The translations under genes and the position numbers were made by a program. A DNA stretch of 63,745 bases, filler included. It is 13 parts of 13 records of this genome, joined end to end, with 100 filler letters (N's around TTAATTAATTAA, not from the genome) between each part and the next. Parts side by side here need not be neighbours in the genome. Positions count along the whole stretch, not along the records: positions 1 to 7,636 come from SRR7504441_6010; 12 more parts are not named here. The stretch is one strand, 5' to 3'. The notes below the pieces were generated by a model. That model searched no databases and was not told the DNA's origin. It worked only from the letters and a program-made list of their open reading frames with translations. Below are positions 4,022-54,662 of the stretch, piece after piece (the first letter of the stretch is position 1; every line of letters starts with the position of its first letter).

Positions 4022-4242
4022 TCGCGTGATCGCGAAAGTATTGCATCTAGTGATGGCATTGTATCGGCTACAATAGAAGCCAATTGCAAGACTTAGTGAG
4101 TACTTAGTGAGTGGATCTACGGTGAGTACAATGTACATGTACGATCATGATTGGGATAATTATCATGACATTGTACGTACAAGTCAATGACAATCATGTA
4201 GAGCGCAAAATTAATGTTAAAAATGCTTAGATATTTTGAAAA

Positions 4243-4315
4243 CACTAACAATTTTCCACGGGTTGGCATCAACCATTGGTTGTTTGTGCCAATCCACTTC
4301 ATCCATCGTTAAGTG
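4243..4315 (-). promoter_or_regulatory. Type II SECIS element in the 3' UTR of the deiodinase-like gene
   Basis: Minus strand reads CACTTAACGAT-GG-ATGAA-GTGGATTGGCA-CAAA-CAACC-AAT-GGTTG-A-TGCCAACCCGT-GGAA-A-ATTGTTAGTG. This gives helix I, an AUGA/GA core, an 11-position helix II, an unpaired AAA and an apical mini-helix. Confidence 0.88.
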
Positions 4316-4371
4316 CTCTTCAGTACTAAATCCACCAAGCTCGTATTCTTATCAATCGGATGGAACCAGCT

Positions 4372-5399
4372 CTACACATCTGGCAATTTCATTTGGAGCC
4401 ATCGGTCAATCTCCATCATATCATAGGCTCCATTCGTCGGCATTGCAATGTGTTCGATCCGCCCGTTATCAATCAAGTGGAAGCGTAGAGGCCACGAGGC
4501 ATAGGTCTGATCGTACTCATTCTCCTCACAATCAAGCACGGTAGGCAGCTTGATCCCCAGCGCTGCCACACAGTCCGCTGCAGCCACCACCCGATCCGCA
4601 GTGGTCTTGTGCTGGTTCACTGCCACTACCGGCGCCCCAATCGGCCACTCGTCCTCGGCGTGAGCTTCAGCGATGTATACCAGAAGGAACTGCACTCCTG
4701 CGGGAGTGTAGCGAGCACGCAGGGCCTCCAAGTGGCCGTGGTGCTCGCGGAACGGGGGTCAGGTGTGCGAACCGCCCAGCAGCACCACCGGGCAGTCCTG
4801 CTTGACCAGATCGCACAGCCGCAGCTCTTCGGCCCCGTCCGCGCTCAGCACTTTACAGTCCGCCACCGCGTCGCCTGAAGCCACCAGTCAGCCCCCGGCG
4901 CGATTGGCAGGCGCACCCGGATTCAGATGGCCCTTCTTGCACCGGTTGTGCCGCACGTAGTGCGGGATCGCGTGCAGCGCGTCGTCGTCCGGGAAGAGCG
5001 ACACGGCGCTTCTGATTAGCTCGACCCCCAGTTTGGGCTCCACCTGCCGCCGCTCGCCGCCGCCCAGCCCGGGAGAGGCACCCCGAACTCCCGGCTGGCC
5101 CGCTGCTGCAGCAGGGTGACGTAGTCGTTGAACGCCGTGTGGTCCTCTCCGATCGCGGCGAAGCAGCGCTGGCCGAGGGCCGACAGCCGGAGCTCGTCCT
5201 CGCGCCGGAGCATGTCGGCGAGGATCGCCCGGATCTCCGGCTTGGAGAGCTGCTGCATCGCGGCCATGTCCAGGTGCGGCGGCCGGGCCGGGTCGACGCA
5301 CGGCGTATCGAAGGTCAGCTTCGTCGGCACCGCCAGGCTCGCCAACCACTGCTCATCGGACGCCCCGGGCTGGGCGACGCCCTCCTCCAGGACCACCAT
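4372..5399 (-). CDS. Iodothyronine deiodinase-like selenoprotein, 315 aa, Sec at codon 187
   Basis: Exons 5399-5082, 5043-4917 and 4874-4372, with GT-AG introns of 38 and 42 nt. In-frame TGA at 4759-4761 in PVVLLGGSHT-U-PPF, followed by FLLVYIAEAHAEDEW, HKTTADR and YASWPLRF. SECIS lies downstream. Confidence 0.9.
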
Positions 5400-5477
5400 G
5401 CCGCCCTGATCAGGCCTGATGATGATTGTCGTTGGCCGGTTCCAGTTGTTGTGCTCGGCCGGTAACCCATCTCAGCC

Positions 5478-6926
5478 ATGTCTGGAGCCGAGGACGCGAG
5501 CCTGCTGTACCTCCTGTTCGGGTTTGTGTTCCTGATCGACCTGCTCAACTTGCTCGCCTGGTGCGGGCTCGAGACCCCACGCAACGTGCTCCGCAAGATC
5601 AGCTGCTACAAGCGCGGGTGCCGCCCTCCGCCCGGCTTGGCCCGATCGGCGGCGGCAGCTGGCAGCACCTGTTCTTCTCCAACTCGCAGAAGTTCAAGCC
5701 GAAGGTCGTGGGCACCGACCCGGGAAAACGCAACTGGTACGCCCGCGCCCCCCTCTGGCCCGCCAGCGGCCGGGGCTCAGGCCCGAGCCGCCCAAGGCCT
5801 CCGGCAAGGAGGAGATGAAGGAGATCTGGGTCAACCGGCGCCGGCTGATCCTGATCCGGCACGGCGAGTCCGAGTGGAACAAGGTATTCAACCGCGGGAT
5901 CGACAAGGGCAAGACGCTCATCCGGATCTTCCTCTACCCGATCTTGGAGCTGCTCAAGTTTCCGCTGCCCGACTCTTACTTCTATGACTCGCCTCTGAGC
6001 GACCTCGGGATCGAGCAGTGCCAGGAGTTGGCCCGGTTCGTGGAAAAGACCGAGGACGTGGACCAGGGCCAGGGCTCAGATTGGACGGTGATGATCCGCT
6101 CGCCCCGGTCTGACCCGCCCCGGCAGCGCGATGCGCGCGATCTGCGTGGCATGTCCGGCACCCGCTCGATCGTGGTCTGCTCCCAGCTGCGCCGGGCCGT
6201 CAGCACCGCCGTGTTCAGCCTGTGGCCCCGGCTGCAGCGGACTGGGTGCGCCCAGCCCCGGCCAGCAGCCGAGCCGCCGGCAGCGAAAACGTGCTCCTGC
6301 TGTCTTCGCTGATGGAGCAAAGCCGCAACTTCGACTGCGTGCCGCTCTCGTCCCCGCAGGAGGTGTTCGGGCGGCTGGGCGGCGGTGACTTGGCACAGGT
6401 TCCGCCTCTGCCAGACTTGGACGCCGCTCTCACCAAGAGTGGGTACACCCGCGACATGTTTGATGCAGCCGGTGCGGGCCGAGCTAGAAGCCGCCCACCG
6501 TCCGGGCAGGCAACATGGGCGACAAGCCAGTCAAGTGCCCAACCAAGGAGCGTGGCTACCGGCGGATGCTCGACTTCGTAGAGTTCTGCTTCCAACCCAA
6601 CCTGGAGAGGACCACCGTGATCGCCGTGGGCCACTCGCTCTACTTCCGCAACTTCTTCCGTTGCTTCCTGGACCACAGCCTGATGGAGAAGTCGCCGGCC
6701 TGCATCTACAAGCTCAAGAACGCCGCGTGTGTGCGTCGGGCGGCTGGTGGCTGGGGTTATCTGCGGGTCAGGTCGGGATCACGCTGCAGCGGCAGGTGGA
6801 CCCACAGACCCGGAGCTACATCTACCGGTAGGCGGGCGGCGGGGGGGTGGGGCTGACTCGGCTGGCAGGATCATGCCGGACGAGATCGATGAGCTGCACC
6901 CCGTTGGGAATGTTTTCAAGAGGTAG
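5478..6926 (+). CDS. Histidine phosphatase / phosphoglycerate mutase-like protein, multi-intron, with N-terminal hydrophobic segment
   Basis: LILIRHGESEWN, DSPLSDLG, SQLRRAVST and AVGHS motifs, spread over exons separated by ~40-nt GT-AG introns. Confidence 0.8.
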
Positions 6927-53730: not shown

Positions 53731-54465
53731 CTATTTGGCGGCAAGCTGCGCCTGTCTCCAATCGACAAAATCGTCCATCAGGCAGGGCCAGGCGGCGGCC
53801 GGGTCGTATTTTGTGAGCTCGGGGTCCATCTGGTGCAGGAAGTCGAGCAGCACGCTCCACTGATCCTGTGTGATGAACTTGATCCCGCCTTTCGTCTCAG
53901 CCTGCGCCACAAACTCCAGGAACTTCTGGAGCAGCGGGAACTCGGCCACCGAGATCACCACCGGGAGCGTCTGCAGCGCCATCTCGGTGGTTACGTGCTT
54001 CTTGATCCCGTCCCGCAAGTGCCGGAATACAAACGCGTAAAACTCCTTAAACTGTGTCGGGTCGTGCTTGAAGACCCCGCCGAAGAGCGTGAGGTGGGCA
54101 CGGAGCTTGGCCACGCTGTCCACCTCCACCCGGGCCAGCGCCAGCTCGAACTCGGCCCGGGCGAGCCCGGCGTCGTCCTCCCACCCGAGCAGAAAGGCCA
54201 GGTGGAGCCCGCCCACGTCCTGCTCCTCGATGCCCAGCTCCTCCATCAGGCCCATCAACCCCATCACGTCCACCCGCAGCTTGTCGTCCTCGCTGATGTA
54301 TCTATCGCACAGGGCGGTCAGCCGCTCCCGGTTGTACGGCCTCTTGTCGACCCCGGTTGTCTGGTGGTTCAAATCCACCGCCCCCGCCGGCGACACCGCC
54401 TGCCGCTTGGAGCCGCCGGCCCTCTTCTTCTTGTCAGTGGTCGCCCGCTTGCGTTTGGTCGTCAT
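53731..54465 (-). CDS. DCN1-like cullin neddylation E3 (PONY domain)
   Basis: FKEFYAFVF, ITQDQW..LLDF and YDPAAAWPCLMDDFV; N-terminal basic NLS. Confidence 0.88.
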   Translation of the reverse strand: MTTKRKRATTDKKKRAGGSKRQAVSPAGAVDLNHQTTGVDKRPYNRERLTALCDRYISEDDKLRVDVMGLMGLMEELGIEEQDVGGLHLAFLLGWEDDAGLARAEFELALARVEVDSVAKLRAHLTLFGGVFKHDPTQFKEFYAFVFRHLRDGIKKHVTTEMALQTLPVVISVAEFPLLQKFLEFVAQAETKGGIKFITQDQWSVLLDFLHQMDPELTKYDPAAAWPCLMDDFVDWRQAQLAAK

Positions 54466-54662
54466 CGCCCCGCAGTTGCCCGGCCCCGCGTCTCCGCTTT
54501 GGACGGCCGAGTAGCTCGCTTTGCTCTGTGATGTGCTGCCGAAGCCCGAGCCCCNNNNNNNNNNNNNNNNNNNNNNNNNNNNNNNNNNNNNNNNNNNNTT
54601 AATTAATTAANNNNNNNNNNNNNNNNNNNNNNNNNNNNNNNNNNNNNNNNNNNNAGGCAGCG

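What the first reader, a model, noticed from the sequence alone, without database searches (positions are those of the whole stretch)
4243..5399. Hidden selenoprotein: soluble deiodinase-like enzyme with in-frame UGA and a type II SECIS
Seen: after removing two tiny introns (5044-5081, 4875-4916), one 315-codon frame is interrupted only by TGA at 4759-4761, in PVVLLGGSHT*PPF. About 57 nt past the stop lies a hairpin with an AUGA/GA core, an 11-position helix II, AAA and an apical mini-helix. Established: iodothyronine deiodinases carry GS(C/A)TUPPF, YIxEAH and the downstream H..R motif, all matched here, and eukaryotic Sec insertion needs a 3'-UTR SECIS. Inference: this protist encodes a Sec-dependent dehalogenase/redox enzyme. 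Animal DIOs have an N-terminal membrane anchor; this one has a ~150-aa soluble domain instead (REDELRLS...HYVRHNR), which points to a different substrate such as organoiodine or halophenols. The ORF track splits this gene into fragments.
Basis: partly seen in the sequence, partly recalled or inferred. Interest (0 to 1): 0.88.

Follow-up and report, generated by a model that had tools for sequence, protein, structure and literature searches.

The report
Soluble deiodinase-like selenoprotein gene
A three-exon gene of a marine microbial eukaryote encodes a selenium-containing relative of the thyroid-hormone deiodinases, which gene finders cut in two at its selenocysteine codon; the enzyme family is already known, but its conserved extra N-terminal domain matched no family or fold that I could search.

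Summary
On the minus strand, exons 5399-5082, 5043-4917 and 4874-4372 give a 315-codon frame whose only interruption is TGA at 4761-4759. The C-terminal half is a clear T4_deiodinase domain (PF00837, 90.5 bits against a cut-off of 27). The TGA aligns with the catalytic Sec of mouse Dio3 and Dio2. Of 70 metagenomic relatives that span this column, 69 have TGA and 1 has TGC. Both sides of the TGA are under purifying selection. TGA also ends 15 of 26 long ORFs in the window, so it is a normal stop here. A type II SECIS-shaped hairpin lies at 4322-4237, with ATGA 69 nt after the stop. My own scanner finds such sites about once per 10 kb, and they are enriched in relatives' 3' regions (16 of 44 against 1 of 44 reversed). 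Rfam's models never matched. There is no membrane anchor. Instead there is a conserved all-alpha domain of about 110 aa with no Pfam family and no fold match. Deiodinase-like selenoproteins are already known in algae, Dictyostelium and bacteria. The substrate is unknown, and the Sec machinery could not be checked because no genome is held.

The parts
5082..5399 (-). Exon 1 (codons 1-106); start ATG at 5399-5397
   Evidence: the frame is closed upstream by TGA at 5474-5472, with no earlier in-frame ATG
5044..5081 (-). Intron 1, 38 nt, GT..AG
   Evidence: removing it gives a gap-free alignment to L001 and L002
4917..5043 (-). Exon 2 (127 nt; codons 107-148 and the first base of codon 149)
4875..4916 (-). 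Intron 2, 42 nt, GT..AG, holds CTGAC; would give an in-frame stop if retained
   Evidence: removing it gives a gap-free alignment to L001 and L002
4372..4874 (-). Exon 3 coding part, up to and including stop TAG at 4374-4372
4917..5270 (-). N-terminal all-alpha domain (about residues 44-149; intron 1 lies inside this span). No Pfam family, no fold match
4393..4874 (-). Deiodinase (thioredoxin-fold) domain, PF00837
   Evidence: 90.5 bits, E 1.4e-25; 4tr3 E 5.4e-17, 9h48 E 8.2e-12; on orthologue L002
4759..4761 (-). In-frame TGA, residue 187, read as selenocysteine
   Evidence: (69 of 70 relatives TGA, 1 TGC)
4711..4748 (-). Stable hairpin starting 13 nt after the UGA (-25.3 kcal/mol, z -3.0); possible local recoding helper, clade-specific
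   Evidence: kept in L001 and L002, absent in L003-L005
4237..4322 (-). SECIS-like element, type II: helix I 4322-4306 / 4254-4237; ATGA 4302-4299; helix II 4298-4287 / 4268-4257; CAAA 4286-4283; mini-stem 4282-4270; GA 4256-4255
   Evidence: no Rfam match
4226..4371 (-). 3' UTR, minimum extent: one contig of a polyA-selected metatranscriptome run covers 4226-4691 with 1 mismatch
   Evidence: run X1, record 1

Best explanation
This is one intact nuclear gene of a marine microbial eukaryote with a compact genome (59.5% GC, introns of 38-42 nt). It encodes a 315-residue soluble selenoprotein. Residues from about 147 to the end form an iodothyronine-deiodinase-family thioredoxin fold, and the active-site residue 187 is selenocysteine, encoded by UGA. 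The UGA is recoded through a type II SECIS element in the 3' UTR, 69 nt after the TAG stop. A hairpin just after the UGA may assist. Those statements are shown or strongly supported. The next one is inferred. Every residue of the vertebrate Dio proton relay is kept (Ser, Thr, Sec, Tyr, Glu, His, Trp, His), and so are the Dio-specific loop insertion and the Dio3 Arg275 equivalent. The enzyme therefore most likely works as deiodinases do: the selenolate takes a halogen (I+ or Br+) from an aromatic ring while the relay protonates the carbon, and an external thiol reductant regenerates the selenol. No resolving Cys is conserved in the family. Residues of about 44-149 form a conserved all-alpha domain that stands in place of the animal enzymes' N-terminal membrane anchor. 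This domain occurs, as far as I could see, only in front of this type of Sec site. The substrate is unknown.
For: - **Gene model.**. The alignment to L001 and L002 is gap-free across both exon junctions.
- **Family.** PF00837 scores 90.5 bits against a cut-off of 27, and 11 of 11 full-length relatives also match PF00837. An AF2 model of orthologue L002 (pLDDT 86.3) has mouse Dio3 (4tr3) and Dio2 (9h48) as its top Foldseek hits (TM 0.81 on the target, rmsd 2.2-2.4).
- **Catalytic residues.** S, T, U, Y, E, H, W, H and R all align to Dio3 and Dio2. I read their roles in passages of PMC11592359.
- **Sec reading.** The relatives were retrieved with peptide patterns that lie downstream of this column. 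Of 70 that span the column, 69 have TGA and 1 has TGC. dN/dS against L001-L005 is 0.05-0.39 where it could be computed, and the part after the TGA is the more conserved (77-79% against 61-63% amino-acid identity). TGA ends 15 of 26 ORFs of 300 aa or more in the window, so it is not a general sense codon.
- **SECIS.** There is one candidate in the 322 nt after the stop. The window holds 13 such sites in 127,490 nt on both strands. Only 2 have ATGA and an equal or better score, and the other one lies inside a coding ORF. In relatives, 16 of 44 distinct 3' regions hold a candidate, against 1 of 44 reverse complements, 10 of 220 shuffles and 1 of 44 coding ends.
- **Transcript extent.** A contig of a polyA-selected metatranscriptome spans the end of the CDS and the hairpin, down to 4226.
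- **No anchor.** The N-terminus is not hydrophobic. The highest 19-residue Kyte-Doolittle value is 1.79 at residue 244, inside the Trx core, and the maximum in 11 relatives is 1.44.
- **N-domain.** A profile search finds 1121 representative proteins at E <= 1e-3. Of the best 150, 140 end exactly at ..GSxT/S, which means they were cut at the TGA.
Against: - Rfam's SECIS models gave no match at E <= 10 in the gene region, in the 115-nt hairpin alone, or in 20 relatives' contigs. The SECIS call therefore rests on my own crude scanner and on hand reading.
- No read or contig from this organism covers the TGA or the introns, so splicing and the TGA base call rest on relatives.
- No genome is held and the window holds no tRNA gene, so tRNA-Sec, EFSec, SBP2, SPS2, PSTK and SecS could not be sought.
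- The contig in the RNA library may be carried-over DNA.
- No activity is known for any non-animal member that I could read about, so dehalogenation is inferred from conserved residues only. The fold is also peroxiredoxin-like (AhpC-TSA E 0.0015).
Confidence: 0.88

Rival explanations
1. The gene is the same and it does contain Sec, but the enzyme is a peroxiredoxin-like peroxidase or a selenol/thiol oxidoreductase rather than a dehalogenase. On this reading the deiodinase-type residues serve peroxide or disulfide chemistry.
For: There are weak AhpC-TSA and Redoxin matches (E 0.0015 and 0.044; 5 of 11 relatives match AhpC-TSA). After Dio3 and Dio2, the Foldseek hits are ResA, DsbE and 1-Cys peroxiredoxins. 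Passages of PMC11592359 describe a peroxiredoxin motif in Dio enzymes. No thyronine-type hormone system is known in protists (recalled).
Against: The Dio-specific loop insertion and all proton-relay residues are kept, together with the Arg that clamps the substrate in Dio3. The PF00837 score is far above the Prx scores (90.5 against 18.9 bits).
Confidence: 0.3
2. The TGA is a genuine stop. On this reading the locus is either a pseudogene or two separate genes, an N-terminal 186-aa protein and an unrelated downstream ORF.
For: Public gene calls treat it this way: all 8 homologues of the C-terminal piece start after the TGA, and all 12 homologues of the full-length orthologue cover only part of it, 10 of them N-terminal halves without a Pfam domain. 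TGA is the commonest terminator in the window.
Against: The TGA is kept in 69 of 70 relatives, with conserved coding sequence in frame on both sides. The downstream part has no start codon of its own near the conserved GSxT-U-PPF site. A SECIS-like element is present.
Confidence: 0.02
3. The TGA is an assembly error for TGC or TGT (Cys), or it is read as Trp or Cys under a deviant nuclear code.
For: No independent read from this organism covers the codon. Two database relatives are written with W at this place (P0095 and P0142), probably by callers using a TGA=W table. One relative has TGC (L039).
Against: 69 independent contigs hold TGA here. TGA ends 15 of 26 long ORFs in this window. A SECIS-like hairpin lies in the 3' UTR.
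Confidence: 0.03

Closest known systems
Vertebrate iodothyronine deiodinases Dio1-3 (PF00837; structures 4TR3 and 9H48)
   Same: The Trx fold with the Dio-specific loop insertion is shared. So are Sec in GSxT-U-PPF, the Y-I-x-E-A-H motif, the Trp, the second His and the Arg, and a UGA plus 3'-UTR SECIS.
   Different: There is no N-terminal transmembrane anchor, whereas vertebrate enzymes are integral membrane homodimers (passage of PMC8143656). A conserved all-alpha domain of about 110 aa stands in its place. The Cys next to Sec (GSCTU) is His, Tyr, Phe or Trp here, and no resolving Cys is conserved across the family. Identity to the Dio3 model is about 27%.
DIO selenoproteins listed for algae (Jiang et al. 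2020, PMC7539508) and the deiodinase-like selenoprotein of Dictyostelium (Lobanov et al. 2007, PMC2375036)
   Same: These are eukaryotic, non-animal, Sec-containing PF00837 proteins. The Dictyostelium SECIS is type II with an unpaired AAA (passages read).
   Different: In the passages and the section I read, neither paper describes an N-terminal domain or fusions of DIO. Their supplementary files could not be opened, so I cannot say whether their sequences hold this domain.
Bacterial deiodinase-like selenoproteins (GOS and Sargasso metagenomes; PMC2398784, PMC9312934)
   Same: They share the catalytic domain and Sec position. They were retrieved here as L017, L018, L021, L024, L041 and others.
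   Different: The one I read in full (L024) is about 215 aa and lacks the N-domain. The four I folded carry a short GC-rich hairpin 13 nt after the UGA, as a bacterial SECIS would, rather than a 3'-UTR element.
Peroxiredoxin / AhpC-TSA and ResA-type thiol-disulfide oxidoreductases
   Same: They share the thioredoxin-like fold, with the redox-active residue at the N-terminus of helix 1.
   Different: They score far lower than PF00837, lack the Dio loop insertion and use Cys.

Membership tests
Iodothyronine deiodinase family (Pfam PF00837 T4_deiodinase) | Profile score above the curated cut-off | tested here: met
   90.5 bits against 27, E 1.4e-25, profile positions 74-234 of 237; 11 of 11 full-length relatives also match
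Iodothyronine deiodinase family (Pfam PF00837 T4_deiodinase) | Sec (or Cys) in the GSxT-U-PPF active-site motif at the start of helix 1 | tested here: met
   The TGA aligns with the Sec-to-Cys column of 4tr3 and 9h48; the context is GGSHT-U-PPF
Iodothyronine deiodinase family (Pfam PF00837 T4_deiodinase) | Dio-specific loop insertion with proton-relay residues (Ser, Thr, Tyr, Glu, His, Trp, His) and the Dio3 Arg275 equivalent | tested here: met
   All are aligned and identical (full-length residues S184, T186, Y215, E218, H220, W225, H237, R279). Their roles come from passages of PMC11592359
Iodothyronine deiodinase family (Pfam PF00837 T4_deiodinase) | Thioredoxin fold superposable on solved Dio catalytic cores | tested here: met
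   Tested on orthologue L002 (71% identical), not on the window protein itself: 4tr3 E 1.1e-13 and 9h48 E 1.9e-11, TM 0.81 on the target
Iodothyronine deiodinase family (Pfam PF00837 T4_deiodinase) | N-terminal transmembrane anchor (animal enzymes) | tested here: not met
   There is no hydrophobic N-terminal segment. The only KD19 value above 1.6 lies in the Trx core at residue 244
Iodothyronine deiodinase family (Pfam PF00837 T4_deiodinase) | Reductive deiodination of iodothyronines | not testable with these tools
   This needs an enzyme assay
Eukaryotic selenoprotein gene | In-frame UGA conserved in orthologues, with coding conservation on both sides | tested here: met
   69 of 70 relatives have TGA and 1 has TGC; dN/dS is 0.05-0.39
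Eukaryotic selenoprotein gene | SECIS element in the 3' UTR, upstream of the polyA site | tested here: inconclusive
   My own scanner and the free fold give a canonical shape, rare in the window and enriched in relatives. An RNA-library contig reaches past it. No Rfam SECIS model matched, and SECISearch3 is not available here
Eukaryotic selenoprotein gene | Sec machinery in the same genome (tRNA-Sec, EFSec, SBP2, SPS2, PSTK, SecS) | not testable with these tools
   No genome is held for the window; the window holds no tRNA gene
Eukaryotic selenoprotein gene | Selenium in the protein | not testable with these tools
   This needs 75Se labelling or mass spectrometry
Type II SECIS | AUGA...GA quartet, helix II of about 9-13 positions, unpaired AAR, and an extra apical mini-stem | tested here: met
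   ATGA is at 4302-4299 and GA at 4256-4255. Helix II has 11 positions with one A.C mismatch. The AAA starts 13 nt after the quartet's A. The mini-stem has 5 bp with a 3-nt loop

The most novel reading that the evidence does not exclude
The 'N-domain + deiodinase(Sec)' module may define a very large family of soluble eukaryotic selenoproteins that has so far gone undescribed. An N-domain profile finds 1121 clusters at 50% identity, nearly all cut at the TGA in public protein sets. Domain fusions hint that the family's real partners are proteins rather than thyronine-like small molecules. Among the 150 best N-domain hits, the module sits behind BTB and/or BACK (11), F-box (5), ubiquitin-like (4) and ZZ (4) domains, which is the place where cullin-RING ligase adaptors carry their substrate-binding domain. 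The module could therefore be a selenium-based sensor, or a repair enzyme such as a dehalogenase of halotyrosine residues, coupled to ubiquitination. The window's gene would be its free-standing form.
Probability: 0.2. Interest if true: 0.75.

Novelty: new member of a known kind. Interest (0 to 1): 0.45.

Why it matters
For annotation, the result shows that this gene, and the N-terminal halves of more than a thousand representative relatives, are stored in public protein sets as truncated hypothetical proteins because the Sec codon is read as a stop. Selenoproteomes of marine protists are therefore undercounted.

For biology, deiodinase-type chemistry in organisms without thyroid hormones is still unexplained. 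A soluble form that should be easy to express, with all catalytic residues kept, would be a convenient enzyme on which to test halogenated phenolics, halotyrosines or peroxides as the ancestral substrate. The conserved N-domain and its recurrent fusion to ubiquitin-ligase adaptor domains in relatives is the one aspect for which I found no description. My literature searches were made, and supplementary files were not readable.

Tried and rejected
- **Rfam.** Three cmscan runs at E <= 10 gave no SECIS family match: the gene region, 20 relatives' contigs, and the 115-nt hairpin alone.
- **Own covariance model for SECIS.** MAFFT could not align the divergent SECIS candidates of relatives (A2, A4, A7), and RNAalifold on A4 gave only a weak partial structure. 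No model was built. I used a pattern-and-energy scanner with controls instead. It is strict and misses elements I could see by eye, for example in L012 and L026.
- **Second SECIS-like site.** The site at 54465-54369 (minus strand, score -48.3) lies inside a coding ORF beside an N gap, so I rejected it as a false positive.
- **Reads.** Four runs were laid. Nothing from them covers the introns or the TGA, and no joints were seen. One 41-nt piece of a relative (90-95% alike) lies at 4748-4788. This gives neither support nor refutation of splicing.
- **Whole genome.** None is held.
- **Earlier findings.** Look-ups by place and by sequence gave nothing.
- **N-domain.** There is no Pfam family in 11 relatives. 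Foldseek gives no match at E <= 0.001. The best VIA-align Z is 5.8, below the noise level stated for helical domains. The Atlas gave only a low-recognition MCM_N lead. One of the 150 N-domain hits (P0064) matches Pfam P_C10 at 31.6 bits, but only 1 of 13 alignment members reaches even E 0.15, so this remains a lead only.
- **Hairpin after the UGA.** RNAalifold found no consensus structure across six relatives.
- **Supplements.** The supplementary files of PMC7539508 could not be opened.
Full report
**1. Observation**

The gene lies on the minus strand. The start ATG is at 5399-5397. It is preceded in frame by TGA at 5474-5472, with no earlier ATG.

Two GT..AG introns interrupt the frame: 5081-5044 (38 nt) and 4916-4875 (42 nt). 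Removing them gives a 948-nt CDS of 315 codons that ends in TAG at 4374-4372. Its only interruption is TGA at 4761-4759, which is residue 187. If intron 2 were retained it would give an in-frame stop.

The window is 59.5% G+C and holds 1056 N, so it is a scaffold.

**2. Splicing**

No read or contig from this organism crosses the introns. Support comes from relatives instead.

The search for related loci on metagenome contigs matched 147 stretches and confirmed 77 loci. It used two peptide patterns that lie downstream of the Sec site.

The spliced protein aligns in a single gap-free tblastn segment to uninterrupted frames:
- L001: residues 20-313, 294 columns, 70% identity.
- L002: residues 14-313, 300 columns, 71% identity.
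- L003-L005: 53-57% identity.

All of these cross both exon junctions. Contigs L001-L005 are 1.08-1.25 kb and hold the whole frame. A more distant relative, L012, ends in a run of A.

**3. Family**

- The exon-3 product matches Pfam T4_deiodinase at 90.5 bits (cut-off 27, E 1.4e-25). AhpC-TSA and Redoxin match only weakly. Exons 1 and 2 match nothing.
- Against solved structures it matches mouse Dio3 (4tr3, E 5.4e-17) and Dio2 (9h48, E 8.2e-12). The TGA falls on the Sec-to-Cys column.
- In that alignment the following are identical to the animal enzymes: the Ser and Thr before Sec, the Tyr, Glu and His of Y-I-x-E-A-H, the Trp five residues later, the second His, and the Arg equivalent to Dio3 Arg275. 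Passages of PMC11592359 assign these residues to the proton relay and the substrate clamp.
- An AlphaFold2 model of orthologue L002, built from 11 relatives, has pLDDT 86.3 and pTM 0.78. Its best Foldseek matches are 4tr3 and 9h48, followed by ResA-type and peroxiredoxin-type proteins.
- All 11 full-length relatives match PF00837.

**4. Is the TGA selenocysteine?**

Of the 77 loci, 70 have a segment spanning the column. Of these, 69 carry TGA and one (L039) carries TGC. The other 7 loci had no spanning segment. Retrieval did not depend on this column.

dN/dS of the window against L001-L005 is 0.18-0.39 upstream of the TGA. Downstream it is 0.05-0.17 where dS could be computed; dS was saturated in 3 of 5 downstream comparisons. 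The downstream part is the more conserved in amino acids, at 77-79% against 61-63% identity to L001 and L002.

TGA is not a general sense codon here, because it ends 15 of the 26 stop-to-stop ORFs of 300 aa or more in the window.

Public protein sets cut the family at this codon:
- The 8 homologues of the C-terminal piece all start after it.
- The 12 homologues of full-length L002 are all partial. Ten are N-terminal halves of 173-212 aa without a Pfam domain, named 'hypothetical protein' or left unnamed. Two hold PF00837.

**5. SECIS**

The free MFE fold of the 143 nt after the stop gives a long hairpin (z = -2.49; 4 of 200 shuffles fold as well). It has a long helix I, an internal loop that carries AUGA on the 5' side and GA on the 3' side, helix II, an internal loop CAAA/A and a 5-bp mini-stem.

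My scanner looks for [AG]TGA...GA, a constrained helix II of at least 8 pairs, an unpaired AA 9-14 nt from the quartet, and a helix I duplex energy. It finds exactly one site in the 322 nt after the stop. That site has ATGA at 4302-4299 and GA at 4256-4255, is type II, and scores -12.1 kcal/mol for the inner part and -13.5 kcal/mol for helix I.

Over the whole window, both strands (127,490 nt), the scanner finds 13 sites. Only two have ATGA and a score of -25.6 or better. The other one (54465-54369) sits inside a coding ORF next to an N gap and is a false positive. The chance expectation for the 322-nt region is therefore about 0.03 for any site and about 0.003 for one this good.

In relatives, 16 of 44 distinct 3' regions of at least 120 nt hold a site. 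The controls were 1 of 44 reverse complements, 10 of 220 dinucleotide shuffles and 1 of 44 coding ends. The elements share shape but not sequence.

Against this, Rfam's SECIS models gave no match at E <= 10 in three searches. I could not build a covariance model because MAFFT failed on these divergent hairpins.

One contig of a polyA-selected metatranscriptome covers 4226-4691 with one mismatch. If it is RNA, the transcript runs past the hairpin.

**6. The N-terminal part**

There is no hydrophobic N-terminus. The only 19-residue Kyte-Doolittle value above 1.6 lies in the Trx core at residue 244, and the maximum in 11 relatives is 1.44. Vertebrate deiodinases, by contrast, are integral membrane proteins anchored by their N-terminus (passage of PMC8143656).

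Residues of about 44-149 are conserved across relatives, with the motifs E-x-E-L-R-L-S, L-F-P-D-D-x-E and Y-V-R-H-N-R. They model as an all-alpha domain (pLDDT 84.1).

This domain matches nothing known:
- No Pfam family.
- No Foldseek match at E <= 0.001.
- Best VIA-align Z of 5.8, which is below the level the tool states for chance in helical domains.

A profile of the domain finds 1121 of 1.84 billion representative proteins at E <= 1e-3, and 533 at E <= 1e-10. Of the best 150, 140 end exactly at a ..GSxT/S motif, as judged by a regular expression, which means they were cut at the TGA. Two more are written with W at that place. The other 8 are fragments or doubtful hits.

I therefore saw no case of this domain without a Dio-type Sec site. 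One bacterial relative that I read in full (L024) is about 215 aa and lacks the domain. Four bacterial-type relatives carry a short GC-rich hairpin 13 nt after the UGA, as a bacterial SECIS would.

**7. Fusions in relatives**

Pfam was run on all 150 best N-domain hits:

| Domain in front of the module | Hits of 150 |
|---|---|
| BTB and/or BACK | 11 |
| F-box | 5 |
| Ubiquitin-like | 4 |
| ZZ | 4 |
| SAM | 1 |

In addition, L006 lies on a 341-kb contig and reads as ubiquitin-like, then ZZ-like (both judged by eye, not by Pfam), then N-domain, then Dio(Sec) in one frame. L010 is a frame of about 1000 aa with a hydrophobic N-terminal region and a single TGA.

The window's gene is the minimal, free-standing form. 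These fusions suggest, but do not show, that the module can work on or with proteins of the ubiquitin system.

**8. Mechanism**

Shown: one gene, a deiodinase-family fold, a conserved UGA at the catalytic position, a SECIS-shaped 3'-UTR element, and a soluble two-domain architecture.

Inferred: Sec insertion through the SECIS, and deiodinase-like reductive dehalogenation. In that scheme the selenolate abstracts the halogen, the conserved relay protonates the ring, and an external thiol regenerates the selenol, because no resolving Cys is conserved. A peroxiredoxin-like redox role is the main rival.

**9. What is known**

- DIO is listed among 42 algal selenoprotein families, about 80% of its members having Sec (PMC7539508; passages and section 11 read).
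- A deiodinase homologue with a type II SECIS is described in Dictyostelium (PMC2375036, passages).
- Deiodinase-like selenoproteins are tabulated for marine and other bacteria (PMC2398784 and PMC9312934, passages).
- Earlier follow-ups of this scan reached the same view for bacterial members.

Six full-text searches returned no paper whose listing or read passages describe this N-domain or BTB, F-box, UBL or ZZ fusions of DIO. The supplementary files of PMC7539508 could not be opened, so I do not claim the domain is unreported.

**10. Verdict**

The gene is a well-supported new member of the known eukaryotic DIO selenoprotein kind, and it is missed by ORF-based annotation. Its substrate is unknown. 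The conserved N-domain and its fusion partners in relatives are the most interesting lead.

Noticed in passing
window 4711-4748 (minus strand): A stable hairpin starts 13 nt after the UGA (-25.3 kcal/mol, z -3.0, 1 of 200 shuffles as good). It is kept in L001 and L002, with one C-G to U-A double change in L002, but it is absent in L003-L005 and has no consensus over six sequences. It may be a local recoding helper (SRE-like), or just a by-product of conserved codons.
   Followed up: partly
proteins P0010-P0159; loci L006, L010: In relatives, the N-domain + Dio(Sec) module is fused behind BTB/BACK (11 of 150), F-box (5), ubiquitin-like (4), ZZ (4) and SAM (1) domains. L006 reads as UBL, then ZZ-like, then the module in one frame on a 341-kb contig.
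   Followed up: partly
L045 about 1640-1660 and L023 about 1720-1740 (linker before the N-domain): Two different contigs with tandem ubiquitin-like domains have a second in-frame TGA in the acidic linker. There is no Met between it and the conserved start of the N-domain. This could be a second Sec, a read-through, or an unspliced intron. It is unexplained.
   Followed up: no
window 54369-54465 (minus strand) and the N run at about 54555-54606: This is the best-scoring SECIS-like site of my scanner (-48.3). It lies inside a coding ORF that runs into a scaffold gap, so it is a false positive. It shows the limits of the scanner.
   Followed up: yes
window 5400-5480 and 5478-6312 (plus strand): A divergent neighbour gene appears to start about 80 nt from this gene's ATG. 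Further on, its frame holds an RHGESEWN motif typical of histidine phosphatases (recalled). The intergenic spacers are very short, which fits a compact picoeukaryote-like genome.
   Followed up: no
protein P0064 (residues 21-101): One N-domain relative matches Pfam P_C10 (Protein C10) at 31.6 bits over the N-domain itself. Among 13 other members, only one reaches E 0.15. This is a possible distant link to a small animal protein of unknown function.
   Followed up: partly
window 4112 and 4171: A DNA metagenome contig (run X2) differs from the window by a 6-nt deletion and a 6-nt insertion (TGTACA) in the AT-rich spacer between the two convergent genes. This looks like strain-level length variation in a short repeat.
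   Followed up: no
loci L017, L021, L024, L041: Bacterial-type relatives carry a 7-bp GC-rich hairpin with a 3-nt loop 13 nt after the UGA. The stem sequence differs between loci while pairing is kept, as expected of bacterial SECIS elements.
   Followed up: partly
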